Part shown: in pieces, positions 1 to 20,318 of the stretch
Numbering within the stretch: the first letter of the stretch is position 1
Layout of the letters: the number at the start of each line of letters is the position of its first letter
Origin: a virus
Lineage: Duplodnaviria > Caudoviricetes
IMG/VR virus record: IMGVR_UViG_3300032561_000025
Span: 1 to 58,715 of that record
Reading direction: 5' to 3' (one strand)
Length of the DNA: 58,715 nucleotides
Notes under the pieces: model-generated
What the model saw: the letters and a program-made list of their open reading frames with translations, nothing else
Databases searched by the model: none
Told to the model about the DNA's origin: nothing
Translations under genes and position numbers: made by a program

Positions 1-172
1 TCGGGGGCGATGGACTCCTTGTCACCGGCCACGCCGCGCAGGGATTCGGCTAGGCTCCAGTCCTTAGGAAGGCCGAAGGCGTCTGAGACGGAGACTCCGG
101 GGAGTCTTCCAGAATCTGCGGGAGGAGTTGCGGCAGCGGATGGCGGCATGGTTGGCATGAGTTAAGGTTTCC
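1..172. repeat. Terminal direct repeat / circular overlap, copy 1 (matches 58544-58715)
   Basis: 172 bp identical to the window end except one base (T46 vs G58589). The scaffold ORF start lies inside it, consistent with a circular genome of about 58543 bp. Confidence 0.95.
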
Positions 173-3380: not shown

Positions 3381-4979
3381 TCAATACGATTTCTTACGGT
3401 TTAAACTGCGCGGCTTGGTGCGGATGGGACCGGAGAGATTCTTCGCGGCTTCGTCCATCATTTTTCGGGCAAGCTGCATACAGTTGATGATGGCGTACCG
3501 CCATGCGTCGGCGATGTGGTCTGCTCCGTTCGCCCTCGGTCCCTTGACCGGTTCCCCGGAGGAATATCCGGGCTCTCCCTTGAACGGGTATCGGTATTCC
3601 CCGGCGAGGGCGCGGTGCAGGCGCGGGCAGTGAAGGCGGTCGATGCGGTACTGGTAGCGTCCTGACGGGTCCTTCATCTCCATCAGCCGGTTTCCTATGG
3701 CGATGGTGGTGTGGAGGGACCTGACGTATGTCTGGTACTTAGGGAAGAATCCGTTCGCATTGAGGACCGGGATCGAGGCTCCCGTATCCTTCCTCGCCGC
3801 GCCAGCCGGGTCGCAGAAGTCGAGGACGCCGCTGCAAATGCTCCTGTCTCCGACGAACGGGAACTGGGCCTCGGTTATCTCGATCACTGCGCGGCACTGA
3901 CGCTCAACGTCGCTCTGCTCGTCGTAATATTCGTGCAGGTCCCACCAGTATTCGAACGGGACCTGCCTGCCCCCAAGGTCGAAATCCAGCTTGAAGTACG
4001 CGCTGAATGTGACGGCGTGGGTGGATCCAAAGTCCCAGCCGCGAATAAGGTAGGCACCCTTCGGGAATGGAAGATCGACGGCGCAGTGCTTGTCCGTCTT
4101 GTAGGCGAAATAGACGGGCTTCCCCTCGAAAAGGTCGGCGTATTCCCCAAGCAGATACCGCCTGTAGTGGGCGGGCTTGTCGGCATACTGCAACTCTAGG
4201 TTCTCGATGTAGCCCTTGGGCAGGTTCTGGCGGTTCTCATGGGTGGGGATGTGCCAGAAAGCGTACCGGTCGGAGGAGGAATGCTTCTTCTCAAGGTCGG
4301 CGATCCAGTGGTCCGGGTCCGGGGGATTGGTGTCGAGGATGATGCAGTAGTCGGGGATCTCGTCCCCGTAGGCGTCCTTCCACCTCAAACACCCCACCAT
4401 CAGGTCAACGTCGCGCTCCTCCATCAGGTCGGCCTCGACCAAGATGCCCATCGAGCACTCGTAGCCGCGCAACTGCCCCTCCGACTTCTGCTCGTCCTTC
4501 AGGCCGCGAAACTCGATGTAGCTGCAAAGCCGGTCCCCCTCGTTGTCGATCCAGCTTACGATCTGCTGCCGGGTGTGGTGGCCGGAAGCCATGAACTCGT
4601 TGTAGGCATCGACCGCCGCAGCGGACGGGATCCGGACGCGCAAGCCGCCGTTCCACTTACGGAACAGGCTCAACTCCTCGTCAATGGCGATCCGGTAGCC
4701 GTACCGGTCGTAGGTGTCATTGAAGGTCTTTACCGATGTGTCCTGATTGCTGACCTGAGTCTTCCTCACGCACAGCACCTTTGCCCCCGCGAAGTTTAAA
4801 CAGTGCCTTATCGCCTCGACCGCGCACCCCGTGGTCTTTCCGCTCCCGCGCCCACCGATCAGAACCCGGATCAGCGCGGAGGAGTTGTGGAACTCGCGGA
4901 TGGACTTTCCCGGCTTGTACCAATCCTTAGGGGTGTTTTCCCTGCGCGAGGCTAGGGGTTTAGTTAGGGTTGCGGGCAT
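3381..4979 (-). CDS. terL: Terminase large subunit
   Basis: Walker A GGRGSGKT, Walker B ILVEA, DTNPP coupling motif, RNase H-like nuclease residues GWDFG and DHIADAWRY. Confidence 0.93.
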   Translation of the reverse strand: MPATLTKPLASRRENTPKDWYKPGKSIREFHNSSALIRVLIGGRGSGKTTGCAVEAIRHCLNFAGAKVLCVRKTQVSNQDTSVKTFNDTYDRYGYRIAIDEELSLFRKWNGGLRVRIPSAAAVDAYNEFMASGHHTRQQIVSWIDNEGDRLCSYIEFRGLKDEQKSEGQLRGYECSMGILVEADLMEERDVDLMVGCLRWKDAYGDEIPDYCIILDTNPPDPDHWIADLEKKHSSSDRYAFWHIPTHENRQNLPKGYIENLELQYADKPAHYRRYLLGEYADLFEGKPVYFAYKTDKHCAVDLPFPKGAYLIRGWDFGSTHAVTFSAYFKLDFDLGGRQVPFEYWWDLHEYYDEQSDVERQCRAVIEITEAQFPFVGDRSICSGVLDFCDPAGAARKDTGASIPVLNANGFFPKYQTYVRSLHTTIAIGNRLMEMKDPSGRYQYRIDRLHCPRLHRALAGEYRYPFKGEPGYSSGEPVKGPRANGADHIADAWRYAIINCMQLARKMMDEAAKNLSGPIRTKPRSLNRKKSY

Positions 4980-5691
4980 CGGAAGTCTCCAGAGTCAACT
5001 GCTCGGATCCATCGCCCTCCTCGGGCAAGCCCTGCTCGATCTTCTCGTTGATCTTCTCGACGGTTTCCCTGACGCGCTTGAGGTGCCTCGGGGCGGCGAC
5101 GATGGCCGGGATGTTGATCTGGAGCATGGGTACGAGGTTATTGCTTCCCGGCCTCGGCTGGCCAACCCCTCCCTTGACAGCGTACTCGTCCCCGTGCGCC
5201 ACCATCGAAATCTCTCCCAGCAGCTTCACGGACCGGGCAAGGTCTGAAATGGTTTCCGGATCCATGAAGGCGTCTGGGTTCTGCTCCTGCTTCGTTGAGA
5301 TCTGGTCAATGATGTGCTGGATCTGCTGCATGAGCCCGGTCGCTGCGCTGATCGTGCGGTCCCGGTTCTCCTCGATCTTCTTGAGCTTCTTCGCAATCTC
5401 GTCCGGGGACTGCTCGGGGATCGGGATCTTCCTCTGGAAAATCTCACCGTACTTGCGGATGAGCCCCGGCCAGTCCTCGTCGGAGCACCGCCTCAACAGC
5501 TTCAGGTAGGAGCAGTTCCACGCCTTCGATATTTCCCTGAGGCTTATGCCCTTCGCCGCCATGACGAAACAGGCTGCGTGGTTGATGCCGTGGTCGGTGT
5601 GCTGACGGATCTCGGGATCCGAGAGGATGACATCCTTCTTCGTGTCGCCCGTCAGTTCGGTCGGCACGGTGTTTTTCCTTACTTCACCCAC
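4960..5691 (-). CDS. Putative terminase small subunit
   Basis: Directly upstream of and overlapping terL. HTH-like segment GISLREISKAWNCS followed by coiled-coil helices. Confidence 0.55.
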   Translation of the reverse strand: MGEVRKNTVPTELTGDTKKDVILSDPEIRQHTDHGINHAACFVMAAKGISLREISKAWNCSYLKLLRRCSDEDWPGLIRKYGEIFQRKIPIPEQSPDEIAKKLKKIEENRDRTISAATGLMQQIQHIIDQISTKQEQNPDAFMDPETISDLARSVKLLGEISMVAHGDEYAVKGGVGQPRPGSNNLVPMLQINIPAIVAAPRHLKRVRETVEKINEKIEQGLPEEGDGSEQLTLETSDARNPN

Positions 5692-5913: not shown

Positions 5914-5915
5914 GG

Positions 5916-6122: not shown

Positions 6123-6136
6123 GGTTTAAACGGGGA

Positions 6137-6546: not shown

Positions 6547-6594
6547 GTGCTTTCACACCATTCCCTGCCATTTTCCGGCAGTGTCAATACTTGT

Positions 6595-6909: not shown

Positions 6910-6921
6910 CGGGGTGCCCGT

Positions 6922-7355: not shown

Positions 7356-8233
7356 TTCTTCACCTCCGTCGCGCTCGCGGCCTCCTTCGGCCTGTTGTCT
7401 TTAACGATGGTCGCGCCACTGTAGATCCCCCCTATCAGGCCAGAGAAGTATCCCCGAATCTCGTTCACGGTGCCGCCACAAATCTTGTTCACGGTGCCGC
7501 AACAAATCGCGTTCACGGTGCCGCCACAAATCTCGTTCACGGTGCCGCCACAAATCGCGTTCACGGTGCCGCCCCAAATCGCGTTCACGGTGCCGCCCCA
7601 AATCGCGTTCACGGTGCCGCCACAAATCGCGTTCACGGTGCCGCCACAAATCTCGTTCACGGTGCCGCCACAAATCGCGTTCACGGTGCCGCCCCGAATC
7701 TCGTTCACGGTGCCGCCACAAATCTTGTTCACGGTGCCGCCCCGAATCTCGTTCACGGTGCCGCCACAAATCTTGTTCACGGTGCCGCCCCAAATCGCGT
7801 TCACGGTGCCGCCACAAATCGCGTTCACGGTGCCGCCACAAATCGAGGAAATAACCATCGCGTGCGCACATTCGATCTTCGCGGAAGGAGCGATCACAAA
7901 TTGGCCGCCGATCAGGAGCGCAACGTCGCCTGTAACGATGATGCCCGAGACGTATTGCTTCATGCGCTCGATCACGGCGTCCTGGATTTCGTCCGTGAAC
8001 CATTCGGGTTTTCGCTCCTCGTCGAGATTGAATTTGTAGGTTTCGACCTGATGCGCTGTGGCAAGGCTTTCGGGCGAGAACTCGATCTTGGCGTAATTCA
8101 GGCGCGGACCGTAGTTGAGTTTGAAGATGGTCTCCAATTCCGAATGGGATTCGGTCCAGGGAGACAGCAGAAGGCGAAAACCGCCCTTTGCGGATTCGTC
8201 TTGAACGGCGATGGCTGACTTGTAATTGCACAT
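7352..8233 (-). CDS. Protein with 16x octapeptide repeat (predicted beta-solenoid)
   Basis: N-terminal MC..KSAI...ESHSEL domain followed by I[CWR]GGTVN[AKE] x16. Confidence 0.8.
   Translation of the reverse strand: MCNYKSAIAVQDESAKGGFRLLLSPWTESHSELETIFKLNYGPRLNYAKIEFSPESLATAHQVETYKFNLDEERKPEWFTDEIQDAVIERMKQYVSGIIVTGDVALLIGGQFVIAPSAKIECAHAMVISSICGGTVNAICGGTVNAIWGGTVNKICGGTVNEIRGGTVNKICGGTVNEIRGGTVNAICGGTVNEICGGTVNAICGGTVNAIWGGTVNAIWGGTVNAICGGTVNEICGGTVNAICCGTVNKICGGTVNEIRGYFSGLIGGIYSGATIVKDNRPKEAASATEVKK
7451..7843. repeat. 24-bp tandem repeat, 16 copies
   Basis: Unit gttcacggtgccgccacaaatcgc and variants, read directly from the sequence. Confidence 0.95.
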
Positions 8234-8245
8234 AGTGGGAGTGGG

Positions 8246-8425
8246 TTAAGGTGTTTTATCCGTCGCGCTCGCGGAGAGGGCGGCGTCGTGCGAGAGGAGG
8301 TCGCGGCGTTCATAGATAACGCTCCACCCTTCCAATTCTTCGGGAGGAAGCGAAACGGCGTGTTTGGCTATCTCAGCCAGTCTCTCATCCGTCATTCTGT
8401 CCGGTTGCGAAGCGGGGGTTGTCAT
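8246..8425 (-). CDS. Hypothetical protein (59 aa, not in ORF track)
   Basis: MTTPASQPDRMTDERLAEIAK...; SD-like AGGAG upstream. Confidence 0.5.
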   Translation of the reverse strand: MTTPASQPDRMTDERLAEIAKHAVSLPPEELEGWSVIYERRDLLSHDAALSASATDKTP

Positions 8426-8455
8426 GGGGTTATGTCTCCTATTGAAATAAGGTGA

Positions 8456-8677
8456 TTATCCCTTGGCGACAGGTATCCGCCGAAGCGCGGCCCCAAGTTC
8501 AAGGGCGTTAGGCTCTGGCGAGTGAATCACGGCAACGGGCTTCCCCTGCTTAGTGACGGTGAAGGTTTTTCCCTGCTGAACCTGTGCAATCAGGTCGCCC
8601 GGTTGGGCGCGTAGATCGGACATCGTTATTGTTTCCGTTTCGCCTTCAAGGAGACGTAGGTATCGGAGTCGTTTCAT
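8456..8677 (-). CDS. Phd/YefM antitoxin-like protein
   Basis: TITMSDLR....LI..VQQG..FTVTKQGKPVAVI matches the Phd/YefM DNA-binding fold. Confidence 0.75.
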   Translation of the reverse strand: MKRLRYLRLLEGETETITMSDLRAQPGDLIAQVQQGKTFTVTKQGKPVAVIHSPEPNALELGAALRRIPVAKG

Positions 8678-8710
8678 AATTTACGTGTCGCAATGGGATA
8701 CTCGCCTAAG

Positions 8711-9388
8711 TTATTTGGCCCTCCCGGTGATGGGTGTTTTCTCTGATAGTCTTTTTTGAATCCACGCCTCGATCTTGGATAGGGTGGCTTCTAAAGCCGC
8801 CGCGTTAGCCGCCGCGTTAGCCGCCGCGCTAGCCGCCGCGTTAGCCGCCGCGTAAGCCGCGTGAGCCGCGTTAGCCGCGTGAGCCGCCGCGTAAGCCGCG
8901 TTAGCCGCCGCGTAAGCCGCCGCGCTAGCCGCCGCGTGAGCCGCCGCGTAAGCCGCGTTAGCCGCCGCGTAAGCCGCCGCGCTATTTTTCTCAGTCGGAT
9001 CAGCCAGCCACTTCTTTGCGGCCTCAATTGCCTCTCTCGGGCGATCCTCGCCGGGGTATTTCTTCTCGTAAATTCCAATGACCAGTTTCGCCGCGAAGAT
9101 GGCAAGAGAAACCGAGTCCTCCTTCTTCCATTCCCAGACTTCGACCAGCCGCATCTTCTGATGCACGCTCTTGTCAGCTTGGGCTAGACTTTCTCCAGCG
9201 ACTTCGACTCTCGCAATGAATGCGGTCCAAATATAGCCCATCGCGTCCAGCACTCGCTCGCTGCAATGAAAGCCGTTCTCGCAAAGGACTGGCTTGCCCT
9301 TGACTTGCTTCCACTCGCCAATTTTCCAAGCGCAGTTGCCGTGCGCTGACTTGAGACCATTTGCCAGCGTCTTGAATAGGGTTTTCAT
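8711..9388 (-). CDS. Phage hypothetical protein with Ala-rich repeat
   Basis: N-terminal LCENGFHCS domain, a PREAIEAAKKWL helix, then an (AAYAAANA)n tract. Confidence 0.7.
   Translation of the reverse strand: MKTLFKTLANGLKSAHGNCAWKIGEWKQVKGKPVLCENGFHCSERVLDAMGYIWTAFIARVEVAGESLAQADKSVHQKMRLVEVWEWKKEDSVSLAIFAAKLVIGIYEKKYPGEDRPREAIEAAKKWLADPTEKNSAAAYAAANAAYAAAHAAASAAAYAAANAAYAAAHAANAAHAAYAAANAAASAAANAAANAAALEATLSKIEAWIQKRLSEKTPITGRAK
8793..8981. repeat. 9/12-bp tandem repeat encoding AAxA units
   Basis: gccgccgcgtta / gccgcgtaa / gccgcgtga units, read directly from the sequence. Confidence 0.9.
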
Positions 9389-9433
9389 AAGTTTTTAGCC
9401 CTCCCGGCGTCTCTACGTTGATGATTGAGACGG

Positions 9434-10072
9434 TCATGCCGACTTGAGTTTGGCGGATTGCGAGTGGTTGGCGTAGGTGTCCCACGTCGGATAATAGGCA
9501 TCTGCCTGATCGCCCCATACAGACCATCGCGGGCGGGGGCCACGCGCAAACAGTTCAAGATACGGGCCGGGGCTGCATGCCTCGATAACATCGTAAATCT
9601 CATCGGGCTTCCGCGAATGCTCCCGCTTCATAGTCCTGATGATGTTTACCTGTCGGCGTCCTGGAGCGAGCGTCCGAGCGTTCTTGCCGCGAACGCCGAA
9701 TAAGACTAATTCCGTGGTGTTGCGAAAATAGAAGCCTACACCGCGCCCGTCTGGTCCGCCGTCCTTTCTGACTTTGTGCCAGACGATGTTGCTCTTGTAT
9801 TGGAACCCCCATGCGCGAAGTGTTTCAAGACCCTCTGGCAAAAGGGCATTGGGAACCCACAGATACAAATGGGCGGTTTCAGTCAGGACCGAAGCCACCG
9901 GCATCGCCTTGATATCACTAAGATTCATAGTGCAATACCGATTTAGACGACGGTGTTCAGGCGCGATCTTTCCGGTACGATTCTGGAACTGCCATGGCGG
10001 ATCGGCCAATACTGTTGAAAACTTGTGCCGGCTCGCCACGCGCAGGAGACTTTGGTGAAGTGTGCTAGGCAT
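9434..10072 (-). CDS. MT-A70 family N6-adenine methyltransferase
   Basis: Catalytic DPPW, LYLWV, WGF.YK..IVW.K, HSRKP and LELFAR motifs. Confidence 0.9.
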   Translation of the reverse strand: MPSTLHQSLLRVASRHKFSTVLADPPWQFQNRTGKIAPEHRRLNRYCTMNLSDIKAMPVASVLTETAHLYLWVPNALLPEGLETLRAWGFQYKSNIVWHKVRKDGGPDGRGVGFYFRNTTELVLFGVRGKNARTLAPGRRQVNIIRTMKREHSRKPDEIYDVIEACSPGPYLELFARGPRPRWSVWGDQADAYYPTWDTYANHSQSAKLKSA

Positions 10073-10078
10073 GGCGTA

Positions 10079-11002
10079 TCACTCAATTGCATCGTCGAAC
10101 TCATCCCATTTTTGCTGTTTCCCGCCCCCAAAGAGCGCGACAAAGGATTCGATGAAATCCTGGCGACTCTTGGCGATCTGCAAAAATCCCGTGATCTTGC
10201 TGAGGTGATCCCGCAATTCCTCTTTGGCGTTTTCCTCAATGAATTGATGCAGTCTCATCCATTCTGCGTCTTTTCCAGAATCAGAGGAATACTGCGCCCT
10301 CTTCGCTTTTAATTCAGAGGGAAGTCCGGAAAAAATCGGCTCATAGATAAATCGGTTCGTCCACTTACCAACCCAACTTGGTTTGTTCCTGCTAGCTTTG
10401 AATGAATCACCATAGAGGCGAAGCAGCGAGATGTAGAACTCATCCTTGAATGTTTTTTTCCATTTTTCAGGGATAGAAAGGAGAAGGGTATCGACCGGCC
10501 GCAGTTTCTGGCGAGCGTTGCGGAACGCGATGACGAGGCGGAGTCGGTATTCGCGAGTTGCCGCATTCGGTTTACTCAGGGTTAGGAGCAACGCAATCTG
10601 GTCAAAGTTGAGCCAAGCGAACTTTTGCGGATTTCCTGACGTAAGTTGCGCTCTCTTGCCAACTAGCGTTTCAAACGCGAGTTGTCCTAGCTGAGTCAAC
10701 GACTCTTCATTTTTGTAAATCTGGTCTAGAAGATTCTTGTGCTGGATTCCGAACAGCTTGGCGATCTCCCTAGAATCGACATAAATCTCGCTCCCCTGAT
10801 TTATGGCATGGTTAAATTCGTTCATGGGCTTTGGGCGATAGGCGAGGACCGTATCGGCAATCTTGTCCAGAATTTCGAGGTGGTGATTCACGCCGTTAGT
10901 TGTTTGTAGGTGAGCCGATGGCCAGCCGTCGCAGAGACAAGGCTCGAAAGCCTTTCCCTGCGGTTTCGCGGTCATGGCTGGTCCTTGGGTTGGTGTGCTC
11001 AT
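10079..11002 (-). CDS. Rha-family regulatory protein fused to a P63C domain (true start possibly 10825)
   Basis: DSREIAKLFGIQHKNLL (Rha); W.K.F..EFY...RL....KPSWVGKWTN..IY...LHQF (P63C). Confidence 0.75.
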   Translation of the reverse strand: MSTPTQGPAMTAKPQGKAFEPCLCDGWPSAHLQTTNGVNHHLEILDKIADTVLAYRPKPMNEFNHAINQGSEIYVDSREIAKLFGIQHKNLLDQIYKNEESLTQLGQLAFETLVGKRAQLTSGNPQKFAWLNFDQIALLLTLSKPNAATREYRLRLVIAFRNARQKLRPVDTLLLSIPEKWKKTFKDEFYISLLRLYGDSFKASRNKPSWVGKWTNRFIYEPIFSGLPSELKAKRAQYSSDSGKDAEWMRLHQFIEENAKEELRDHLSKITGFLQIAKSRQDFIESFVALFGGGKQQKWDEFDDAIE

Positions 11003-11006
11003 AAAC

Positions 11007-11474
11007 TCATTCAGCCCTCGTTTCCTTTGGCCCTTCGATTTGCAGTCCCTTGAATTTCGATTCGATCATTCGCTGGTATAGGGTTTCTCCTGTTTCAGTG
11101 TGCGCGTAGGGCAGGAATACTTGGTCCAGAGTGGCCATCTCGGTTTCGATCAGGGCCATTTGCGCCTCTATCCAGTCTTTCAATATCCTCCACGCAACGC
11201 GCCGCGCATAGTCAGAATCGTTGAGAAGCCTGCGCGGAACTTTGCCTTCCCTGACGGCCCGGTTGAGAACGGCGCAGACCTTCTGAACATCGCACGGGAG
11301 CTTAAACGCCATGATACCGCATTGGGTAACGACCTTGAAGCTGATGGCCGTGACGTTCCCTCCAGCGTCGTACTCAGAGAGAATCGCCTGTGCTTTCGCC
11401 TTCACAAGCGCCTGCTGTACCTCGGCGATCGTGCGGAAGGTTGGAACGGTGGTCGTGTAATTCAGCAGCGGCAT
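11007..11474 (-). CDS. Conserved phage hypothetical protein
   Basis: NYTT.V...RTIAEVQ..L...A.RVAWRILKDWIEAQ.A, a pattern I recognise from phage proteins. Confidence 0.7.
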   Translation of the reverse strand: MPLLNYTTTVPTFRTIAEVQQALVKAKAQAILSEYDAGGNVTAISFKVVTQCGIMAFKLPCDVQKVCAVLNRAVREGKVPRRLLNDSDYARRVAWRILKDWIEAQMALIETEMATLDQVFLPYAHTETGETLYQRMIESKFKGLQIEGPKETRAE

Positions 11475-11911
11475 TAGGGCTCCTTTGCGCTTTCGATCGG
11501 CGGGGCGAGCTTTCTCAAGGCGTTACCGCTAGTGAAGGCTCGGAATCCATCCTCAAATTCAACCTCAACGGTGTTCATTTTCCCGCGTGCCAAAATCCGA
11601 CAGCGTTGGCCATTGCGGTCGCCTAGGCGCCTTTTCCATCGCCAAACCAGCGGGTAAATCGACTCTCGTCTTTCGTCTTTCGCGGTTTGCTGATCGGCGG
11701 TGGCGGCGGTTGTGCTCATGCGACTTCCTCCATCAGTTTCTTTTCCTGCCACGTCCAAAACCCCTCCCTCGGCGATCTTCTCGCTCGCCCTGTTCCACAT
11801 CGCCTCAACACCCTCCCAGAAGAAATGCCCCCGCGTGAACACCTCGCGCACCAACATCTCGTCGCTCATCCCCTCCAGCCCGCCCACCCCAAATTTCTCT
11901 TGGTTATCCAT
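11474..11911 (-). CDS. Hypothetical protein, first gene of the leftward operon
   Basis: C-terminal R.GQRCRILARGKMNT..VEFEDG small beta domain; TTGACA lies 39 nt upstream. Confidence 0.55.
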   Translation of the reverse strand: MDNQEKFGVGGLEGMSDEMLVREVFTRGHFFWEGVEAMWNRASEKIAEGGVLDVAGKETDGGSRMSTTAATADQQTAKDERRESIYPLVWRWKRRLGDRNGQRCRILARGKMNTVEVEFEDGFRAFTSGNALRKLAPPIESAKEP

Positions 11912-12344
11912 AAGTCACTGGGTCTGTATCTATCGCGTCAAGTATGTCAATACTTATTTCGCTCTCCCTCTCATAAAAAAAATACCCTCCCACTTTTTCC
12001 ACTCCTTTTCTACCCAGAATTTCCTACAAAAAATTACCCTCCACTTCCCACAAATTATTATCCAGAAAATTTCCCCCGTCCCCAATAAATCAATTCCCCC
12101 AATATTATCCCTCACCAGTTCCCACCCCAGTTTCGAGACGCGCTAACCAATGCAAGGTGGAGCGTGACTCGGGCGTATGGGACCCGCTGGGCTGGTCGGG
12201 ACACGGTTGCCGGGACCGGTTGCCCCTCCGGAGGGTGTCCCTCTGAGCTATTTCGAAGGCACTTTCGACCTTCCGGACCGATCACCTTCACTTTTTAAAC
12301 AGAAACGAGGTTAAACCCTTGGGGCTCAACAAGTAGAATACAGG

Positions 12345-12372
12345 ATTTAACATAATGGAACTTGTGCGAAGT
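12345..12372 (-). other. dif-like XerC/XerD recombination site
   Basis: Minus strand reads ACTTCGCACAA-GTTCCA-TTATGTTAAAT. The right arm is identical to the E. coli dif XerD arm, the geometry is 11-6-11 and the left arm is XerC-like. Confidence 0.8.
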
Positions 12373-12898
12373 AGGCTCACAATCCGCTGCGCCGCACTAC
12401 ATTAACCAAGTGCAACCGATTTGCTGCGCATCTGGTCCGGGTCGAATTTGCTGGACGGACTGAAAAGCGAGGGTAGAATCCGCAGGACGAGCCCCGAGGC
12501 TCGCCGAGGATGACTCAGGCTCCGGATGGAGTCCGGAAAGCGTTGGAATACCCCCACGAAGAGCAACCCTCGTTAAAATCCGGTACAGCGGACAGTGAGG
12601 GAAGACAGCATGGAGGGTCTGGGTCAGTGTGGGTCCGGAGGGAGGGAGTTGCGGGGAGAGCGGTCGGACGGGCCGGGAAACGGGAAGGATAAACCGGGAG
12701 GGTGCGGGCGGGGAGTGGGTCTGGGGTGTGTAAACTTTCCGGGGCGGACCGGGGTAGGTAGTTGCCGGGCTGGAAAGAAAGTGTGATTTTAAACGATATA
12801 TATGATTGACGCCGGGCGGTGTGTTTTCGTAGGGTTTTGGTCGCCGGGGATCCCGGCCCGAAATTAATTCGGCAACCGATAACCAAAAAGGAAATACA

Positions 12899-13900
12899 AT
12901 GGAAACGAAAGCGACAAATCAACAACCCGCAGTGGGTGCGCCGAGCAGTGCGATAATTGCATGGATGAGCCAGATCGTAATCGACGCGGCGCAGCGGGGA
13001 AATATCAAATTATCGATGCCTGCGGAAGTGGTCCGGAAAGTGGTAGGCGAGCAGGTTGAAGTTGCGCGGAAACTACTCGCGCAAGGACTCGCCGAGCAGG
13101 CGGTCGAAGTAGCGAAGACATTAGTAACACGGGTCGAGATAAAGGTGGGGAATTTCCCGCCGGTTAAGCTGGATTCGATGCACTGTCAGGTGCCGGACTT
13201 GGTGCATATCGTGCAGAGTCTGAGGCCGGGAATGCGTAACGTGATGCTTGTGGGTCCCTGCGGATCCGGAAAGACCCGCGCCGTGATGCAGGTCTCTGAG
13301 TCTTGCGGTTTCGGCCCGGCATTCATTCAGGGTCAGACGGTGAGCCGGTTCGAATACGATGGATTCGTCGACGCTCACGGTGTGTATCACTCCAGCACGT
13401 TTAGGCGGTTTTGCGAGGCCCCGAAAGGTGTATACCTGCAAGACGAGATCGACTCGTCAGACAATTCCGCACTGCTTGCCCTGAAAGCGTTTCAGTCAAA
13501 TGGGTGCTTCACCTTTCCGGACGGCAAGACGTTTCAGCGGACCCCGGACCACTACATCATCGCGGCGGCAAACACCTACGGGACCGGAGCCAATCGCCGC
13601 TACTGCGGACGGACGCCCCTTGACGCTGCCACCCTTGACGAATACCGCATCCTAACGTGGAAGTACGACGAAGACCTTGAGGCCCGCCTCGTTGGCAACG
13701 CTGAGTGGCATAGCAGGGTCAAGAGCGTGCGCTGGGCGGTGGACAAGCTGGATCTGGCGCACCCCATCACACCCCGCAACGCCATGAGGGGAGCGGATGA
13801 GATCCGCGCTGGGTCGAATATCGCCGAGCAGGAATTGGCGCAACTGAGGCGCGGACTCATGGACTCGGATTGGCAAAAGGTGATTGCAAACGCCAAGTAA
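12899..13900 (+). CDS. MoxR/CobS-like AAA+ ATPase
   Basis: GPCGSGKT, LQDEID and AAANTYGTG..Y.GR..LDAATLD motifs; SD AAGGA. Confidence 0.85.
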   Translation: METKATNQQPAVGAPSSAIIAWMSQIVIDAAQRGNIKLSMPAEVVRKVVGEQVEVARKLLAQGLAEQAVEVAKTLVTRVEIKVGNFPPVKLDSMHCQVPDLVHIVQSLRPGMRNVMLVGPCGSGKTRAVMQVSESCGFGPAFIQGQTVSRFEYDGFVDAHGVYHSSTFRRFCEAPKGVYLQDEIDSSDNSALLALKAFQSNGCFTFPDGKTFQRTPDHYIIAAANTYGTGANRRYCGRTPLDAATLDEYRILTWKYDEDLEARLVGNAEWHSRVKSVRWAVDKLDLAHPITPRNAMRGADEIRAGSNIAEQELAQLRRGLMDSDWQKVIANAK

Positions 13901-13926
13901 ACGCTGAACCGAAAAAGGGCAATCCG

Positions 13927-14796
13927 ATGAAAACCGAAAACGAGTTTAAACTGGTCGAAACGATAGACCCTAATCCGGGTAGGTTCGGGGACCGCATGAT
14001 CCGCACTCTGGATTTTTGCGATTTGCCGCACCTTCTCCGGGTCGCCGAGGTTGATTCGCCGCAGTGGGCCGAGAAGGGGCACTACAGCAAGGGGGACGGA
14101 GACGCGCAATGGCGCGGGACGAATACGTGGGCCGAGGCAATGCAGCTAGTCCGGACCGGTTGGCCGGAAGGATTTGCCAAGGCGAACGCACTGCGCGGCA
14201 ATCTGGTTGCGAGCGTGTCCGGATCCCGAGCGATGAAACCGAAACTCAGGCGTGACATCGCGGGTTTTATGCCGTGTGTTCCCGCTGTCCTTGCCGGTGA
14301 GCCTGATTCGATGTATTCCATCAAATTAAACGAGGCCGAGAACAGGGGCCGCATCATCCGCATCGTCTATAATGTCTGCGTGTCCGCAGGGATTGACGCG
14401 GAGACAATGACGCTGCGCGGAGCCCTTGCCCTTGCCCTTATCGATTTGCTGGAGGGGTGCGGATTCAGGTGCGAGGTTATCCTCGCTATCGGCGACTCGT
14501 TCGGGGGGTTCAGAAATCAGATATTCGTTCCCCTGAAAAACTCTGACCAAAATCCGGAAATGGATTCCCTCGCTTTCTGGATCGCGCACCCAGCGGGATT
14601 AAGGCGAATCATATTCGCAATTCTGGAAAATTGCTTTCCGGATTTGCCCTATTCCTACGGGTCCCCGACCGAGGTATGCAAGGATCGGCAAGGGGACATC
14701 TACTGCAACGAGGCTTACCTCGGGGACGTTAACAACGAAACCGCAGTCCCCTTCCTAAAAAGTCAGCTTCAAAAGTTCGGCGTCGAAATTTCCTGA
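13927..14796 (+). CDS. vWA-like partner of the AAA ATPase (CobT-like)
   Basis: Directly downstream of the AAA gene. Contains G..P.VP..LAG.P..M and an IRIVYN..VS.......RG..AL.LID.LE..G strand-helix pattern. Confidence 0.65.
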   Translation: MKTENEFKLVETIDPNPGRFGDRMIRTLDFCDLPHLLRVAEVDSPQWAEKGHYSKGDGDAQWRGTNTWAEAMQLVRTGWPEGFAKANALRGNLVASVSGSRAMKPKLRRDIAGFMPCVPAVLAGEPDSMYSIKLNEAENRGRIIRIVYNVCVSAGIDAETMTLRGALALALIDLLEGCGFRCEVILAIGDSFGGFRNQIFVPLKNSDQNPEMDSLAFWIAHPAGLRRIIFAILENCFPDLPYSYGSPTEVCKDRQGDIYCNEAYLGDVNNETAVPFLKSQLQKFGVEIS

Positions 14797-14818
14797 TTGT
14801 TTAAACGAAAGGTCAAAA

Positions 14819-15505
14819 ATGGAAAAGCAAGTTGAACAGTCCACACCGAGCCCCGAGAACACCCCGGAGCCCGTCGAAATCGAGATCGAGATCGAAGGAT
14901 TTGAGACCAAGCCCGAGCCCGAGCCGGTCCCGGTCCCCGATAGCACCCCGGAGCCCCAGCGCAGCCCCGACAGCACCCCCAGCGAGCCTGTCCCGGTCCC
15001 GGAGATACCTGAGCCTAGGGACGACACCCCCTGGCCTGAGGAGGCAAAGAAAAACCGGGAGGCATGGCTCGCCGAGGCGGCACGGCGCACGGCGCGGCAC
15101 GCTGACTCCCTGACCCATGTCCTGTTTTCGACAGGCTACGGCAAGGGAGGCACGCGAGGCCATCGTCAAGTCTACATCATCGCAAACAAGTCCGGCGTCG
15201 GTTTCCAAGTTTTCATCCGTCCCACGGTTCATTCGAAAGACTTGGCAGCCGGTTGCGTGCGGGCCGCCCTCTCCGGTTTAAACATCCGGGCGCGGTTCGG
15301 TCTGGATGATATTGGCAATTGGCCGGACTACCCGCAGCCCGAGGCCAGCGAGGTTCACACCCCGCAAGCCACCCGGATGATCAAAGCCAAGTGCCCGGTG
15401 TGCGGTTGCACGCTCCGCATTTCCGACCACTGGATCGAGAAGTCCGAGGGCAAGCTGACCTGCCCGATGCCGGGGTGCGGCACCCGCATGGAGATCACCC
15501 GGTAA
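14819..15505 (+). CDS. Pro/Glu-rich protein with degenerate SprT-like domain and C-terminal Zn ribbon
   Basis: Q.TRMIK.KCPVCG..LR....WI.....CP..C; no HExxH motif is present. Confidence 0.55.
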   Translation: MEKQVEQSTPSPENTPEPVEIEIEIEGFETKPEPEPVPVPDSTPEPQRSPDSTPSEPVPVPEIPEPRDDTPWPEEAKKNREAWLAEAARRTARHADSLTHVLFSTGYGKGGTRGHRQVYIIANKSGVGFQVFIRPTVHSKDLAAGCVRAALSGLNIRARFGLDDIGNWPDYPQPEASEVHTPQATRMIKAKCPVCGCTLRISDHWIEKSEGKLTCPMPGCGTRMEITR

Positions 15506-15618
15506 CGTCCTACCGAAAACGAGCAGCCCGGCGCAGCATAATATATAAGCTTGACGCTCGCCGGGCTTTCTCCCACCCTACAGTCAGTCGCAATCCAAAA
15601 CTCAACCAAGGAAAGACA

Positions 15619-15822
15619 ATGAAACGCCAGATTACAATCACACTGGTCCGGAGCACACCGCCGCCGAACTTCGAAGACAGTTACAAGGTGCGCAGCATCA
15701 CGAATGCTCTTGCGGTCGAGGTGTTGGGCAAAGTGTTCCACGCCGGGGACACGATGACCACGGTGCAAGCGGAACACCTTCTCATGGATCCCGCAGTGCA
15801 GATGAAGGTGCTTGCATCCTGA
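15619..15822 (+). CDS. Small early protein
   Basis: ATG at 15619 after CAAGGAAAG; TTGACG at 15551 upstream. Confidence 0.55.
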   Translation: MKRQITITLVRSTPPPNFEDSYKVRSITNALAVEVLGKVFHAGDTMTTVQAEHLLMDPAVQMKVLAS

Positions 15823-15922
15823 ATACGGGCGCGGCCTCACCGAGCCCCGGCCCGCGCCGGGGCTCCCCTGAGTCCACAACGGATTCACCCGAAACAAGGC
15901 AACCCACGAAAGAGGACACAAC

Positions 15923-16258
15923 ATGGACAACGAAGACCACAATATCGTCGAATCGCTTGTCAGGATCGACATCCGCAGGGCGCGGGAAATGGCTTGGCTT
16001 TTCCGCAACGTGAACCCGGCCAAACTGACCTGCGAGCAGCGGCAGCGGATGATGGCGACCCTCGTTTATCCGCTCTTTATCGACATTTGCCTTCCGCTGA
16101 TCAAGAGCATCGTCAAGCCCGGCACCGAGATCCGGCCCGACTGGTACACCGGCCTGGTCAACGCGGACGAGGACGGCGAGCACCCCTCGCCCTGCAAGTT
16201 TAAACTCCCCAGCGGCGCGGAGCAGATGCGGCGCATGAGGTTCAACGGGCGCAACTGA
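15923..16258 (+). CDS. Small early protein
   Basis: SD GAGGA; GC3-rich codons. Confidence 0.6.
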   Translation: MDNEDHNIVESLVRIDIRRAREMAWLFRNVNPAKLTCEQRQRMMATLVYPLFIDICLPLIKSIVKPGTEIRPDWYTGLVNADEDGEHPSPCKFKLPSGAEQMRRMRFNGRN

Positions 16259-16354
16259 CCCGCGATCCCACCCCGAGCCCCCGCCGCCCGATCCCCGGCG
16301 CGGGGGCTTCACGGTGGGATCCGGATCACCCGGAGCCCGTAACCAAGGAAATCC

Positions 16355-16576
16355 ATGAGCAACCCGACAAAGGAAACCATCCTCATCCGACTCAATCCGG
16401 CCCCGAAGCCGGGAGTCGCCGAGTACATCCACCTCGTCAACGGTGTGATCGTCGCCAAGTTCCCCGGCACCCTGTCCTTCGACTGGATAAAGGGCTTCTC
16501 CGCAGGGCGCGGTGCGGATCTGGTGAACATTGCCGACCAGCAGCCCCTGACGTACATGGAGCGGAACGCAGTTTAA
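16355..16576 (+). CDS. Small early protein
   Basis: SD AAGGA; stop codon lies inside GTTTAAAC. Confidence 0.6.
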   Translation: MSNPTKETILIRLNPAPKPGVAEYIHLVNGVIVAKFPGTLSFDWIKGFSAGRGADLVNIADQQPLTYMERNAV

Positions 16577-16782
16577 ACGCGAGGTGCGCCGGGGCGTTCC
16601 CAAGGATCCCTCCAACAACGGAAACCCTTCCCGGTTCGTGTGTCCCACCGGGGGCGACCCGACAACGATGGTAGCCGCATCCAAACAAAGATCGTCTTCA
16701 CCGTGTTCTTTGTCCCACAACAATGCGTAGCGAGAGTAGTTGCCGGGAAGCCCACGAGGGCAGCGAACAACAACAACAACCC

Positions 16783-17034
16783 ATGACCCAGTTTAAACCA
16801 GTCAATTCGCTCGATCCTCCGCCTCCCGCGTTCTTGGGGTACAAGTTTTCCAAGGGCGGGAGCCTGATGATTTGCGTCTGCAAATGGTGCGCGTCGGCCC
16901 CGCAGGTCGAGGCATGGGCGGCGAGGCACAAGGCGCAGGTGACCCACGGAATTTGTCAGGCACACTATGCGGAGCAGTCCGCGAAATATATCGGAGAGAA
17001 AACCAATGGCACACAACCGACTGAAGAAAATTAA
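16783..17034 (+). CDS. Small Zn-binding protein
   Basis: CVCKWC...THGIC..H motif; ATG follows a (CAA)n leader. Confidence 0.6.
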   Translation: MTQFKPVNSLDPPPPAFLGYKFSKGGSLMICVCKWCASAPQVEAWAARHKAQVTHGICQAHYAEQSAKYIGEKTNGTQPTEEN

Positions 17035-17644: not shown

Positions 17645-17965
17645 ATGAAAGTCCATATCTGGCGGGTGAAGCGTTCCCGGCTCCCGCGCCGCGAGGCCGG
17701 TGGAATCACGAAGTTCTCGTCGGTCCAGCTTTACTCAACAAGGAGCGATGCGGTTTCCCGAGCCTCGCTTCTCGTCCTGACAAAGCACCGTGCGAGGACC
17801 GAACTAAAAAAGCATTTAAACAAGTTTATCCAAAGCACGGGGAAAGTTCCCGTCGAGATGTGGTACAGGGTGTGGACCGAAAAGTTTCACGGGATGCCCG
17901 GCTTCAAGGGGGTCCACTACGATCTCTACGTCGAGTGGCAGCAAGCAACCCGCGACCCGTCCTAG
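17645..17965 (+). CDS. Hypothetical basic protein
   Basis: 106-aa ORF convergent with dnaB. Confidence 0.45.
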   Translation: MKVHIWRVKRSRLPRREAGGITKFSSVQLYSTRSDAVSRASLLVLTKHRARTELKKHLNKFIQSTGKVPVEMWYRVWTEKFHGMPGFKGVHYDLYVEWQQATRDPS

Positions 17966-19358
17966 TCGCCGTGGGGTAGCCGGGACTGTTCGGGCTGGGG
18001 AGATCCCTGCCGGGCAGTCTCCGAGATCGGGACGAACTTCGTTATCCTTCGGACAAACCTGAAGGACATCAGCGAGGTCCCGTCATCCCGTCCCTTGGCT
18101 TGGATTACGTTCTGAAAAAAGCTGGGGATCTCGTCCTTGTCCGATGCTTCTGGCTGGGCCTTGCCACTCTTGGGGTCTTCGCTTGGGCGGTGTATGAGGA
18201 TCACCTTGTCGGCGTCCTCCTCCAGCGACCCGCTATCCCGCAGGTCCGACATCCTCGGCTCCCGGTTCTGCTCATTCGCGGAGAGGCGGTTCAACTGCCA
18301 TACGAGGATGATCACGATGTTCAACTCACCGGCCAGCAGCTTCAGGGTCTTCGTGATGCGCCCGATCCCCTGCATCTTTTCATCCTTGCTCCCGGCTAGG
18401 GCGACATCCTCAAGCAATCCGCCGTGGTCGATGACGGCGAGATCAACCTTTCCACTTGCGTGAAGAGCTTTTAGCCGTGCAACGACTCGGGCTAGGGAAC
18501 GGTCGCGTGAGGACGGAACGATGCCCGCTTTTTCGAGATCGGAAAGTTTCTGTTTAAACAAGTTCTGGTCGCCCGGATGGGCTCGGGCCAGATCGCGCAG
18601 GCCGACTCCGGAAACCTCGGCGGCAATTTGCAGGGCGACTTGGAGCGGCCTAACCTCAAGGGTGTCGAGATAAACCTTCACGCCATTGTTTGCCGCGTGG
18701 GAAATTATCTGCCGGGCAAGCGAGGATTTTCCCACGGAAGGCCGGGCTCCCAGAACGACAAGCTGCCCGCGCTGCATGGGTTCGAATAAATAATCCATTT
18801 CCTTCCAAGGCCACCGGACAATTGTTTCGGGCGGCAACTCGCGGGCCTTGATTATCGTTTCTGCGGCCTTTAAAGCCTCTGAGACGATCAGGGGCCACCT
18901 CGGTTCATCTTTGGCGTCTGAGGCCGCTGTAAGCGAAAGGATGCGCCCCACGGGGCCGTCCAGCAGTTCGGACAGACCCTCGCCACGGTAGGATTTGCAC
19001 CCATCGACAAGGTTCAGCCCCTCCTTCAGGACGGAGCGGACCACGAAAAGGTCCCTCACGCGATGTAGGTAATCCTTTAAACCAGCGGTGGTTGGGACTG
19101 CGGATGAAAGTTCGGACAGAAACTGGAGCCCACCGATGGACTCCAGTTCCCTGTTCGCCGTCAGTTCTTGGGCGAGTACACCTACGTCCAAGGATTTCCC
19201 TGCACCCAGCATGGCAACCATGCGCTGAAAAATAATCCGGTGCGATGCTGTCCAAAACCAGTCGGGCATCATCCCCGCTCCGAGACAAATTCCAAGGCTC
19301 TCGCTTCCGTCAAGCAAGCAGCAACTTATGACAGCGGCTTCCGATTTTGGGTCTTGGA

Positions 19359-19362
<4 letters not shown>
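17962..19362 (-). CDS. dnaB: Replicative DNA helicase DnaB
   Basis: N-terminal DnaB domain (E.AVIS..L), GARPSVGKS, QLNR and RP.MSDLRDSGSLEEDAD. Confidence 0.92.
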
Positions 19363-20141
<779 letters not shown>

Positions 20142-20318
20142 GGTCGTGGGAAAATGTCGCCACCAACCAACGAAAGGTTGACCCCCTGCCTTGGGCAGCG
20201 GCAATCGTTGGAGGGTGGCGGGAGGGGATTAACCCTCCAAGTTGGGTTTGATGATTTCATCTGCCGGGGTCAACGACGGCATTGCCAGACGGGAAAATTT
20301 CCCGGCTGGTGTGCAGGG

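What the first reader, a model, noticed from the sequence alone, without database searches (positions are those of the whole stretch)
12345..12372. dif-like XerC/D site in a tailed phage with no integrase
Seen: ACTTCGCACAA-GTTCCA-TTATGTTAAAT on the minus strand, in the 1-kb non-coding divergent control region. The XerD arm is identical to that of E. coli dif (GGTGCGCATAA-TGTATA-TTATGTTAAAT). No tyrosine/serine recombinase or ParAB was found. Established: Xer hijacking is known for filamentous phages (CTX, VGJ), TLC and plasmid cer/psi/pdif sites. Inference: this podovirus-like phage uses host XerCD either to integrate at dif or to resolve dimers of its circular replicon. I am not aware of this being well described for tailed phages.
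Basis: partly seen in the sequence, partly recalled or inferred. Interest (0 to 1): 0.8.

Follow-up and report, generated by a model that had tools for sequence, protein, structure and literature searches.

The report
Plasmid-type Xer site in tailed phage
A complete short-tailed lake phage with no recombinase gene carries one copy of the 28-base site on which bacterial XerC/XerD enzymes act, more likely to keep its own circular DNA in single units than to insert into the host chromosome.

Summary
Minus strand 12345-12372 reads ACTTCGCACAA-GTTCCA-TTATGTTAAAT, once only, in 987 non-coding bases between divergent operons.

Both 11-base arms are identical (22 of 22) to dif-type sites lying among cellular genes on metagenome contigs. 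They are 21 of 22 identical to a published betaproteobacterial dif. About 3e-8 such matches are expected by chance.

The record closes on itself with a 172-base overlap. It encodes no tyrosine or serine recombinase, rve transposase, ParA, ParB or DUF3653.

Integration at dif is disfavoured:
- The central 6 bases match TGTATA at 2 of 6, but the Xer core printed for plasmid pSDC153 at 5 of 6.
- The exact 28-mer is absent from 185,579 species genomes.
- None of the 120 listed capsid-homologue clusters lies on a contig over 70 kb.
- Contigs of 3 of 4 runs bridge the intact site.

Five structural relatives lack the site and the whole early region.

Best reading: a plasmid-type Xer site acting between copies of the phage's own DNA. 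Function is inferred, not shown.

The scan noted dif-like sites in tailed phages before, on other DNA. My six topic searches of the paper library found no report.

The parts
12345..12355 (-). XerD-binding arm, TTATGTTAAAT on the - strand
   Evidence: It is 11 of 11 to E. coli and betaproteobacterial dif as printed in PMC2731167. It is also 11 of 11 to the chromosomal-context sites L216, L217 and L210.
12356..12361 (-). 6-base central region, GTTCCA on the - strand
   Evidence: 2 of 6 to TGTATA, 1 of 6 to L216, and 5 of 6 to the Xer core printed for the pSDC153 minicircle. It is also 5 of 6 to the site of IMG/VR record G025.
12362..12372 (-). XerC-binding arm, ACTTCGCACAA on the - strand
   Evidence: 11 of 11 to L216, L217 and L210. 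10 of 11 to the Thiobacillus denitrificans dif of PMC2731167.
11912..12898 (.). 987-base non-coding region between divergent operons. It is C-rich on the + strand to the left of the site and G-rich to the right.
   Evidence: No Rfam family matched at E up to 1. One promoter-like site was found against 0.7 expected.
11474..11911 (-). First gene of the leftward operon, 145 aa, no family. The operon runs on through Rha/P63C and MT-A70 to terS, terL and portal.
   Evidence: No Pfam or PHROG hit.
12899..14796 (+). First genes of the rightward operon: an AAA_5 (CobS/MoxR-like) ATPase at 12899-13900 and a DUF7192 protein at 13870-14796.
   Evidence: The pair recurs in 72 of 80 distant IMG/VR loci. 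Two of those loci carry an exact XerD arm upstream in the same orientation.
17962..20204 (-). DnaB-type helicase (17962-19362) and DnaD-like loader (19359-20204). No polymerase hit was seen, so replication probably relies on host enzymes.
3381..5691 (-). Large terminase (3381-4979) and a probable small terminase (4960-5691). The site lies 7,366 bases upstream in the same direction of transcription.
   Evidence: for TerL. The 4960-5691 product has no family but is kept next to TerL in 4 of 5 relatives.
1..172 (.). Terminal overlap with 58544-58715 (171 of 172 identical), so the assembly is circular.

Best explanation
The 28 bases are a genuine core site for the host's XerC/XerD recombinases, of the kind that plasmids carry (cer/psi type) rather than a copy of dif.

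How it would work:
- The two arms are taken letter for letter from a bacterial dif type, so host XerC and XerD should bind them.
- The 6-base centre, where the strands are exchanged, is unlike dif. Productive exchange is therefore expected only between two copies of the phage's own site.
- The phage has no polymerase hit but a DnaD-like loader and a DnaB helicase. Its DNA would circularise and be replicated as a circle by host enzymes.
- Homologous recombination would join circles into dimers, and host XerCD acting at the two directly repeated sites would return them to monomers.
- That would keep an episomal or early replicative form countable and heritable without a phage recombinase or a partition system, as cer is held to do for ColE1 (recalled).

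Shown: the sequence, its uniqueness and non-coding place, the identity of its arms to chromosomal sites, the lack of any recombinase in a closed genome, and the lack of integrated relatives.

Inferred: binding, recombination, the partner site, and the episomal stage.
For: Arms:
- 22 of 22 to sites lying among cellular genes on metagenome contigs. L217 is from a 297-kb contig (amidohydrolase, two ferritins). L216 has GC 0.64 (MacB/FtsX permease, MR_MLE, GDSL lipase).
- 21 of 22 to a printed betaproteobacterial dif.
- Chance expectation 2.8e-8.

Centre: 2 of 6 to TGTATA, but 5 of 6 to the Xer core in the pSDC153 minicircle.

No sign of integration:
- 0 exact 28-mers in genome contigs.
- 0 of the 120 listed capsid-homologue clusters lie on a contig over 69,613 bases.
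- Contigs of 3 of 4 laid runs bridge the site with no difference listed there.

The same style of site elsewhere (IMG/VR scan for the arms):
- The centre is within one change of TGTATA in 48 of 74 contigs under 16 kb, but in only 10 of 38 of 16 kb or more. Fisher p = 1.4e-4, not corrected for relatedness.
- The 7 ParA-bearing records all have non-dif centres ending in CA.

Recurrence at the same place: two distant phages share only the ATPase-DUF7192 pair with the window. Both carry an exact XerD arm with a partial XerC arm in the equivalent divergent non-coding region, in the same orientation. These are L033 (XerC arm 8 of 11) and L019 (4 of 11), 2 of 80 loci. Nothing but the arm aligns between them.
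Against: - No experiment of any kind; XerCD binding is not shown.
- Plasmid sites of this type are said to need about 180 bases of accessory DNA and host PepA with ArgR or ArcA (passage in PMC5357621). I could not test for that.
- No partition genes and no clear repressor were found, so an episomal stage is a guess.
- A lytic phage that packages from concatemers has no obvious need for monomers.
- Five relatives by structural genes (capsid 56-75% identical) lack a full site, so the phage family does without it. They also lack the whole 5.7-22 kb early region.
- The closest relatives of the neighbouring ATPase (53-59% identical) could not be fetched, so conservation among close kin is untested.
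Confidence: 0.45

Rival explanations
1. Attachment site of an IMEX. The phage integrates at the host's dif, using host XerCD in place of an integrase.
For: - No recombinase in a closed genome.
- Replication genes are of the host-dependent type common in temperate phages, and a Rha-type regulator is present.
- The arms are identical to chromosomal dif-type sites.
- There is precedent in filamentous, double-jelly-roll and micro-viruses (passages in PMC12715192; listings).
- Published dif centres are not invariant. Ralstonia and Dechloromonas differ from TGTATA in the table of PMC2731167, so an unknown host might match.
Against: - The centre is 2 of 6 to TGTATA and 1 of 6 to L216. On the XerC side, only the third of the first three bases agrees with TGTATA.
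- None of the 8 metagenome sites with identical arms has this centre.
- The 28-mer is absent from 185,579 species genomes.
- 0 of 120 listed capsid-homologue clusters lie on contigs over 70 kb.
- The site is intact in the window and in contigs of 3 of 4 runs.
- No DUF3653 was found (its link to the Xer activator XafT is recalled).
- In IMG/VR provirus G025 a like site lies between terS and terL.
- In Providencia phage PSTCR3 it lies by the terminase genes, while an integrase and cI are annotated elsewhere.
Confidence: 0.12
2. A site tied to packaging or genome ends. Two copies in terminally repeated virion DNA would be recombined by XerCD to circularise the injected genome, as Cre-lox is held to do for part of P1 particles (recalled). 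Alternatively, the site marks the head of the late operon.
For: - In 15 of 17 IMG/VR records that have a Terminase_6N hit and a dif-type site, the site lies 350-3,397 bases upstream of the terminase ATPase domain.
- In the window it heads the operon that ends in terS, terL and portal.
Against: - Here the site is 7,366 bases from terL, with about 15 genes between.
- It is single-copy in the assembly.
- The 172-base overlap lies elsewhere, inside the scaffold gene region.
- No raw reads were available to map the physical ends (laid contigs only).
- The 17 records fall into fewer independent lineages than 17, judged from shared arms and centres.
Confidence: 0.12
3. A fixed crossover point for exchange of gene blocks between phages (as at pdif modules of Acinetobacter plasmids), with no role in the single infection cycle.
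For: - The window is a mosaic. Relatives share portal, terminase, capsid and tail genes but none of 5.7-22 kb.
- The site sits at an operon boundary.
- Earlier notes e1-135177 and e1-5323331 (not checked by me) report block swaps at such sites in enterobacterial prophages.
Against: - The boundary of similarity with the relatives is at about 5.7 kb and 22 kb, not at 12.3 kb.
- Only one site is present, whereas module exchange needs two.
Confidence: 0.08
4. A binding site without recombination. XerD or XerC, or another protein that reads the same letters, acts as operator, roadblock or decoy in the control region.
For: - Across the window, L033 and L019, the conserved island is essentially the XerD arm plus TT.
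- The complete relative G044 carries, upstream of its terS, two XerD-arm-like 11-mers (each 10 of 11) in tail-to-tail order 11 bases apart. That arrangement is not a recombination core.
Against: The XerC arm here is also perfect (11 of 11 to chromosomal sites) and at the exact 6-base spacing. A plain operator would not need that.
Confidence: 0.1
5. Chance resemblance, or an inert scrap of host DNA.
For: Structural relatives lack it. No function has been shown.
Against: - Expectation is 2.8e-8.
- No flank similarity to the chromosomal sites beyond the core was reported by blastn.
- The site is identical in contigs from three further runs.
- It recurs in many other large viral contigs, nearly always outside long ORFs.
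Confidence: 0.08

Closest known systems
Plasmid multimer-resolution sites acted on by host XerCD: psi of pSC101 and cer of ColE1
   Same: - An 11-6-11 core with a good XerD arm.
- A XerC arm whose inner end reads CAA rather than TAA.
- A centre unlike dif: 5 of 6 identical to the core printed for the pSDC153 Xer minicircle.
- Carried by a replicon that has no recombinase of its own, and here no partition genes either.
   Different: - The carrier is a 58.5-kb tailed phage, not a small plasmid.
- Accessory sequences and PepA, ArgR or ArcA dependence are untested.
- That pSDC153 carries psi is my recollection. The paper passage names only the plasmid and 'xer recombination'.
IMEX attachment sites (CTXphi, VGJphi and TLCphi of Vibrio cholerae; dif-type double-jelly-roll phages; gokushovirus prophages)
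   Same: A virus without an integrase that presents a dif-like site to host XerCD (passages in PMC12715192 and PMC5357621).
   Different: - Those are small non-tailed viruses found integrated at dif, often in arrays.
- Their centres keep homology to dif on one side, or they encode XafT.
- Here no integrated copy, no such homology to TGTATA and no DUF3653 was found.
Chromosomal dif with FtsK/KOPS
   Same: Both arms are letter-perfect to dif-type sites in cellular context.
   Different: - The centre differs.
- There is no excess or polarity of the KOPS octamer: 13 found against 13.4 expected.
- The site lies at a point of divergent transcription in a phage.
Cre-loxP of phage P1 (recalled, not read here)
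   Same: A site-specific recombination site on a tailed phage, held to serve dimer resolution of the plasmid prophage and circularisation of injected DNA.
   Different: P1 encodes its own recombinase and partition system. This phage would borrow the host's enzymes and has neither.
Dif-type sites in other tailed phages seen here (IMG/VR records; Providencia phage PSTCR3, MW057855)
   Same: A canonical XerD arm, a good XerC arm, and a free centre that often ends in CA or CCA. The sites are intergenic, and no tyrosine or serine recombinase was found in 0 of 17 terminase-bearing IMG/VR records.
   Different: Most lie within 3.4 kb upstream of terL, whereas here the distance is 7.4 kb. PSTCR3 has its own integrase and cI.

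Membership tests
Xer core site (dif/cer/psi class) | Two 11-bp arms of partial dyad symmetry separated by 6-8 bp | tested here: met
   The layout is 11-6-11. The inner ends read CACAA / TTATG.
Xer core site (dif/cer/psi class) | Arms match known XerC and XerD binding arms | tested here: met
   The XerD arm is 11 of 11 to printed E. coli and betaproteobacterial dif. The XerC arm is 10 of 11 to Thiobacillus denitrificans. Both arms are 22 of 22 to L216, L217 and L210.
Xer core site (dif/cer/psi class) | Bound and cut by XerC/XerD | not testable with these tools
   Needs protein-DNA and recombination assays.
Chromosomal dif | Lies at the replication terminus, with KOPS pointing to it | tested here: not met
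   It sits on a phage genome. The KOPS octamer occurs 13 times against 13.4 expected, with mixed strands.
Chromosomal dif | Centre of the host's dif type (TGTATA in most beta- and gamma-proteobacteria of the printed table) | tested here: not met
   2 of 6. The host's own dif is unknown.
IMEX attachment site | The element has no recombinase of its own | tested here: met
   on a genome that closes.
IMEX attachment site | Integrated copies flanked by dif and a hybrid site | tested here: not met
   - 0 exact 28-mers in genome contigs.
- 0 of 120 listed capsid-homologue clusters on contigs over 70 kb.
- The site is bridged in 3 of 4 runs.
Limits: only contigs were laid, the host is unknown, and the metagenome scan for a junction returned nothing, perhaps because near-identical records are left out.
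IMEX attachment site | Centre homologous to the host's dif on the side of the exchanging recombinase, or a Xer activator (XafT) encoded | tested here: inconclusive
   Little homology to TGTATA or to L216, and no DUF3653. However, the host's dif is unknown, and activators of other families would be missed.
Plasmid multimer-resolution site (cer/psi) | A core with a non-dif centre on an autonomous circular replicon | tested here: met
   Centre; circular assembly. Autonomy as a plasmid is not shown.
Plasmid multimer-resolution site (cer/psi) | About 180 bp of accessory DNA beside the XerC arm that binds PepA with ArgR or ArcA | not testable with these tools
   The feature is as described in PMC5357621. 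The 527 non-coding bases on the XerC side (12373-12898) leave room for it, but no model of such sequences was on hand.

The most novel reading that the evidence does not exclude
Host XerCD is a general, so far undescribed helper of tailed double-stranded-DNA phages.

Plasmid-type Xer sites, with arms copied from the host's dif and a freely drifting centre, sit at fixed places in many unrelated tailed phages. Those places are the head of the terminase operon, or, as here, the early control region. The phages may or may not have an integrase of their own.

The sites would act on phage DNA itself: turning multimers into single circles, circularising injected DNA, or swapping gene blocks between phages. 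They would not serve integration.
Probability: 0.3. Interest if true: 0.8.

Novelty: new variant of a known kind. Interest (0 to 1): 0.6.

Why it matters
Borrowing of XerCD is established for plasmids and for small non-tailed viruses.

If tailed phages use it too, three things follow:
- A large share of 'recombinase-free' phages would have a hidden site-specific recombination step that depends on a host enzyme.
- The arms of the site would give a new marker for host prediction. Here they point to bacteria whose dif reads ACTTCGCACAA...TTATGTTAAAT.
- The strong placement next to terminase genes in other phages (15 of 17 records) would link Xer recombination to DNA packaging or to the modular evolution of phages.

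It is directly testable in culturable systems that carry such sites.

Tried and rejected
The contigs of the closest ATPase relatives P0002-P0009 therefore could not be read.
- The listing of cluster members gave no names or accessions for them.
I never obtained a handle on a bacterial genome, so host genomes could not be searched by taxon.

Scans that found nothing:
- A single-protein scan of viral contigs with the ATPase.
- blastn of 11000-14000 against isolated phages.
- Genome contigs with the exact 28-mer, and with the alignment of P0007 and P0009 (97 pattern matches, none a relative).
- Metagenome contigs with the left flank plus XerD arm, meant to catch junctions. Near-identical records may be left out, so this shows little.

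Read laying, run X18: the listed pieces stop at 12364 and resume at 12404, and the two pieces carry about twice the depth of their neighbours. No loose end was shown there, and 46 pieces and 5 loose ends were not listed. I read this as strain variation or a region shared by two strains, and draw nothing from it.

A lenient dif scan (2 mismatches in each of the XerD arm and the last 8 XerC-arm bases) had no power: 1 hit observed against about 1.1 in shuffles.

Negative checks on the window:
- Rfam: no family in 11700-13000.
- Promoter and terminator scan: at chance level.
- Repeats in the region: nothing telling.
- KOPS: no bias.
- PHROG scans of 20 further ORFs gave a DnaD-like loader, a weak HTH DNA-binding-protein match (22277-22801) and a junction-resolvase-like or endonuclease-like match, but no repressor, excisionase or partition protein.
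- PF03354 and PF04860 added almost nothing to the classification of the IMG/VR records.

Host guess: homologues of the L216 permease are named Opitutus, Lacunisphaera and Opitutae, but also Vicinamibacterales and Bryobacterales, at 60-65% identity. The same arms occur on low-GC contigs. The arms therefore do not name a host.

Papers opened that proved irrelevant: PMC3861242 and PMC3094311.

Not tried: supplements (closed). The supplement of PMC3025954, seen only as a listing, may list dif sites of more phyla. No structure, complex or atlas job was run.

Full report
**What is there.**
The + strand at 12345-12372 reads ATTTAACATAA TGGAAC TTGTGCGAAGT. On the minus strand this is ACTTCGCACAA-GTTCCA-TTATGTTAAAT, the 11-6-11 layout of a Xer core site.
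- It is unique in the window. No second place matches with up to 3 mismatches, and none did in 100 shuffles.
- The XerD arm with up to 1 mismatch also occurs only here.
- From base composition, 0.006 exact XerD arms are expected per window. Only 2.8e-8 sites would also carry a XerC arm within one change of the betaproteobacterial form.
- The site lies in the 987 bases between the start codons at 11911 (- strand) and 12899 (+ strand), 434 and 527 bases from them.

**The genome.**
The window is an IMG/VR virus record, classed linear and 93% complete.
- Its first 172 bases recur at its end with one mismatch, so the assembly closes into a circle of about 58.5 kb.
- Pfam on 40 ORFs gave SU10-type portal, capsid and adaptors, a large terminase, a tail collar, MT-A70, a Rha/P63C regulator, an AAA_5 ATPase with a DUF7192 neighbour, a DnaB helicase and a PD-(D/E)XK nuclease.
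- PHROGs added a DnaD-like loader.
- Six-frame searches at E up to 1 found no tyrosine recombinase, serine recombinase, rve transposase, ParA (AAA_31), ParB_N or DUF3653.
- The stretch is held by 20 listed runs of lake water, freshwater and one biocathode sample. Seven of these runs, from four studies, are not marked as possible sources.

**Is it a Xer site?**
- The table of PMC2731167 (passages) prints E. coli dif as GGTGCGCATAA TGTATA TTATGTTAAAT and Thiobacillus denitrificans dif as ACTTCGCATAA TGTATA TTATGTTAAAT.
- The window's arms are 18 of 22 to the first and 21 of 22 to the second.
- In that table this XerD arm is the beta- and gamma-proteobacterial form; alphaproteobacterial arms differ.
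- A scan of JGI metagenome contigs for both arms with any centre gave 8 contigs.
- L217 (from a 297-kb contig, GC 0.40) and L210 have the centre TGTATA. L216 (GC 0.64) has TAGATA.
- L217 and L216 lie among cellular genes: an amidohydrolase and two ferritins in one, and an MR_MLE enzyme, a MacB/FtsX permease and a GDSL lipase in the other.
- So the phage's two arms are letter for letter those of real chromosomal dif-type sites. Only the centre differs: 2 of 6 and 1 of 6.
- Named homologues of the L216 permease are Opitutaceae-like or acidobacterial at 60-65%. This is a lead to a host lineage, no more.

**The centre.**
- GTTCCA is 5 of 6 identical to GATCCA, the centre of the core GGTGCGCGCAA GATCCA TTATGTTAAAC.
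- That core is printed in the appendix of PMC8340030, for a minicircle made by E. coli Xer recombination of plasmid pSDC153.
- I recall that this plasmid carries psi of pSC101; the passage does not say so.
- The inner end of the XerC arm (CAA, not TAA) is shared with that core.

**Tests for integration.**
- The exact 28-mer is in none of the 185,579 species genomes.
- The capsid protein has 240 homologues at E up to 1e-20. For the 120 listed (49-100% identical), the longest contig on record is 69,613 bases, and many are 55-69 kb. This phage family was therefore never seen inside a chromosome-sized contig.
- The close ATPase clade also sits on contigs of at most 59,166 bases.
- Logan contigs of 3 of 4 laid runs (X14, X16, X17) bridge the site, with no difference listed in it.
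- A metagenome scan for the left flank joined to the XerD arm found nothing. This may only reflect the exclusion of near-identical records.

**Relatives.**
*By capsid.* Ten IMG/VR loci are 56-75% identical.
- Five long records share portal, terminase, capsid, adaptors and tail genes with the window, but nothing between 5.7 and 22 kb.
- None of the five has the ATPase.
- None has a full dif-type site. Across all 10 records, only 2 hold a XerD arm within one mismatch.
- One of these, in G039, has no XerC-like partner.
- The other is in the complete record G044. It is a tail-to-tail pair of XerD-arm-like 11-mers 11 bases apart, in non-coding DNA about 1.4 kb upstream of terS.

*By the ATPase.* IMG/VR holds only distant relatives, at most 46% identical. 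They share just the ATPase-DUF7192 pair.
- Of 80 loci, 3 carry an exact XerD arm.
- Two of these, L033 and L019, have it 2.5-2.6 kb upstream of the ATPase, in the same orientation. In both it lies in a non-coding stretch between divergent genes, with XerC arms 8 of 11 and 4 of 11 to the window's.
- L033 belongs to a 40,249-base record with terminal repeats, rated 100% complete, without a tyrosine or serine recombinase.
- An alignment of the three regions keeps only the arm, one following base and TT.

**The wider class.**
*Hits to the window's own arm type.* Six IMG/VR contigs match.
- L002 is an inovirus, with Zot, secretin and Rep_trans. L005 and L007 have the same ORF layout but were not scanned.
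- L004 and L006 are tailed phages with a terminase.
- In L003 the match lies inside a glycosyltransferase ORF.

- The centre is within one change of TGTATA in 48 of 74 contigs under 16 kb, but in 10 of 38 contigs of 16 kb or more. Fisher p = 1.4e-4, not corrected for relatedness.
- Of the first 80 listed, I examined the 32 records of about 17 kb or more. Six further large records among L168-L199 were left out of the family searches. Of the 32, 2 have a tyrosine recombinase.
- With L004, L006, L033 and L019 added (36 records), none has a serine recombinase.
- 17 of the 36 have a Terminase_6N hit, 13 of them over the cut-off. 8 have ParA, 7 over the cut-off.
- None of the 17 terminase-bearing records has either recombinase.
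- G014 has both ParA and a Terminase_3 hit, so it looks like a phage-plasmid.
- In 15 of the 17, the site lies 350-3,397 bases upstream of the terminase ATPase domain. Orientation relative to terL is mixed, 10 against 5.

*Two cases that show the site is not an attachment site.*
- G025 is classed provirus by IMG/VR. Its site lies between a Terminase_2 small subunit and terL.
- The isolated, circular 39,447-base Providencia phage PSTCR3 carries GGTACACATAA-GCACCA-TTATGTTAAAT beside its terminase genes. An integrase and a cI repressor are annotated about 18 and 11 kb away.

**How it most likely works.**
- The arms should recruit host XerC and XerD.
- Strand exchange needs matching centres, and this centre matches no dif seen. 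The natural partner is therefore a second copy of the same site, in a dimer of the phage circle or in another copy of the phage.
- That is how plasmid sites of the cer/psi type are described (passages in PMC5357621).
- It explains why the centres of large replicons drift while those of small integrating viruses stay close to dif.
- I rate this at 0.45.
- Its weak points are the unknown need of a tailed phage for monomers, the untested accessory sequences, and the absence of the site from structural relatives.
- Integration (0.12), a role tied to genome ends or packaging (0.12), binding without recombination (0.10), a crossover point for block exchange (0.08) and chance or relic (0.08) remain open.

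**Known or new.**
- Xer hijacking is described for plasmids and for filamentous, double-jelly-roll and micro-viruses. I saw this in passages of PMC12715192, PMC5357621 and PMC11630473, and in listings of PMC7062461, PMC3091885 and PMC6744903.
- PMC11630473 states that tailed Vibrio prophages use their own integrases, while filamentous and a few tailless ones sit at dif.
- PMC8026635 says that most plasmid prophages encode their own Xer-like recombinases.
- Six topic searches found no report of a dif-type site on a tailed phage. The library lacks most subscription journals, and supplements were closed.
- Within this scan the theme is not new. 155 earlier notes in at least 145 genomes hold the search words, several on tailed phages. 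They are unchecked AI notes. I reached the psi-like reading and the terminase association (data) before reading them.

**Limits.**
- All evidence is by sequence.
- The host is unknown.
- Only contigs, not raw reads, were laid.
- The closest relatives of the site's own module could not be fetched.
- The counts over IMG/VR are not corrected for shared ancestry.

Noticed in passing
window 1-172 and 58544-58715: The two ends of the record overlap by 172 bases with one mismatch, so the genome is a closed circle although IMG/VR lists it as linear and 93% complete.
   Followed up: yes
IMG/VR records G001, G002, G009, G010, G016, G017, G022, G024, G025, G028, G030, G031, G035, G036, G037 (loci L004, L006, L104, L105, L123, L127, L133, L135, L136, L139, L143, L144, L160, L162, L167): In 15 of 17 terminase-bearing viral records with a dif-type site, the site lies 350-3,397 bases upstream of the terminase ATPase domain. 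None of the 17 has a tyrosine or serine recombinase.
   Followed up: partly
L229 1501-1533 (G044:C1:20416-20448): A complete relative (capsid 74% identical) has two XerD-arm-like 11-mers, each 10 of 11, tail to tail and 11 bases apart. They lie inside a longer imperfect palindrome in non-coding DNA upstream of terS. This is not a recombination core.
   Followed up: partly
L209 4007-4034 (Providencia phage PSTCR3, MW057855): An isolated temperate phage with an annotated integrase and cI carries a dif-type site with centre GCACCA beside its terminase genes. About 50 bases on its XerC side are shared at 80% with IMG/VR provirus G025, although their flanks are otherwise unrelated.
   Followed up: partly
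L202 and L203 (G018): A 26-kb 'provirus' is a tandem array of roughly 10.4-kb units, with several dif-like sites repeated at that spacing. This is the look of an IMEX array.
   Followed up: no
IMG/VR records G011, G014, G015, G019, G026, G027, G033: Seven records with a ParA gene carry dif-type sites whose centres all end in CA; five of them have direct and one inverted terminal repeats, and one (G026) is linear and rated 44% complete. G014 (110 kb) also has a terminase hit, so it looks like a phage-plasmid.
   Followed up: partly
window 5700-22000: The whole early and replication region has no counterpart in five relatives that share the structural genes at 56-75% capsid identity. This is a sharp mosaic boundary.
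   Followed up: partly
L216 3268-3294: A GC-rich metagenome contig with cellular genes carries a dif-type site whose arms are identical to the phage's. Homologues of the neighbouring permease are named Opitutus, Lacunisphaera and Opitutae, and also two acidobacterial orders.
   Followed up: partly
window 21680-22066: A 128-aa product matches PHROG families annotated as Holliday-junction resolvase and endonuclease (E 1e-10). That could matter if only one pair of strands is exchanged at the site.
   Followed up: no
window, 36 places: The palindrome GTTTAAAC occurs 36 times with no extended consensus around it. It is unrelated to the dif-type site.
   Followed up: partly
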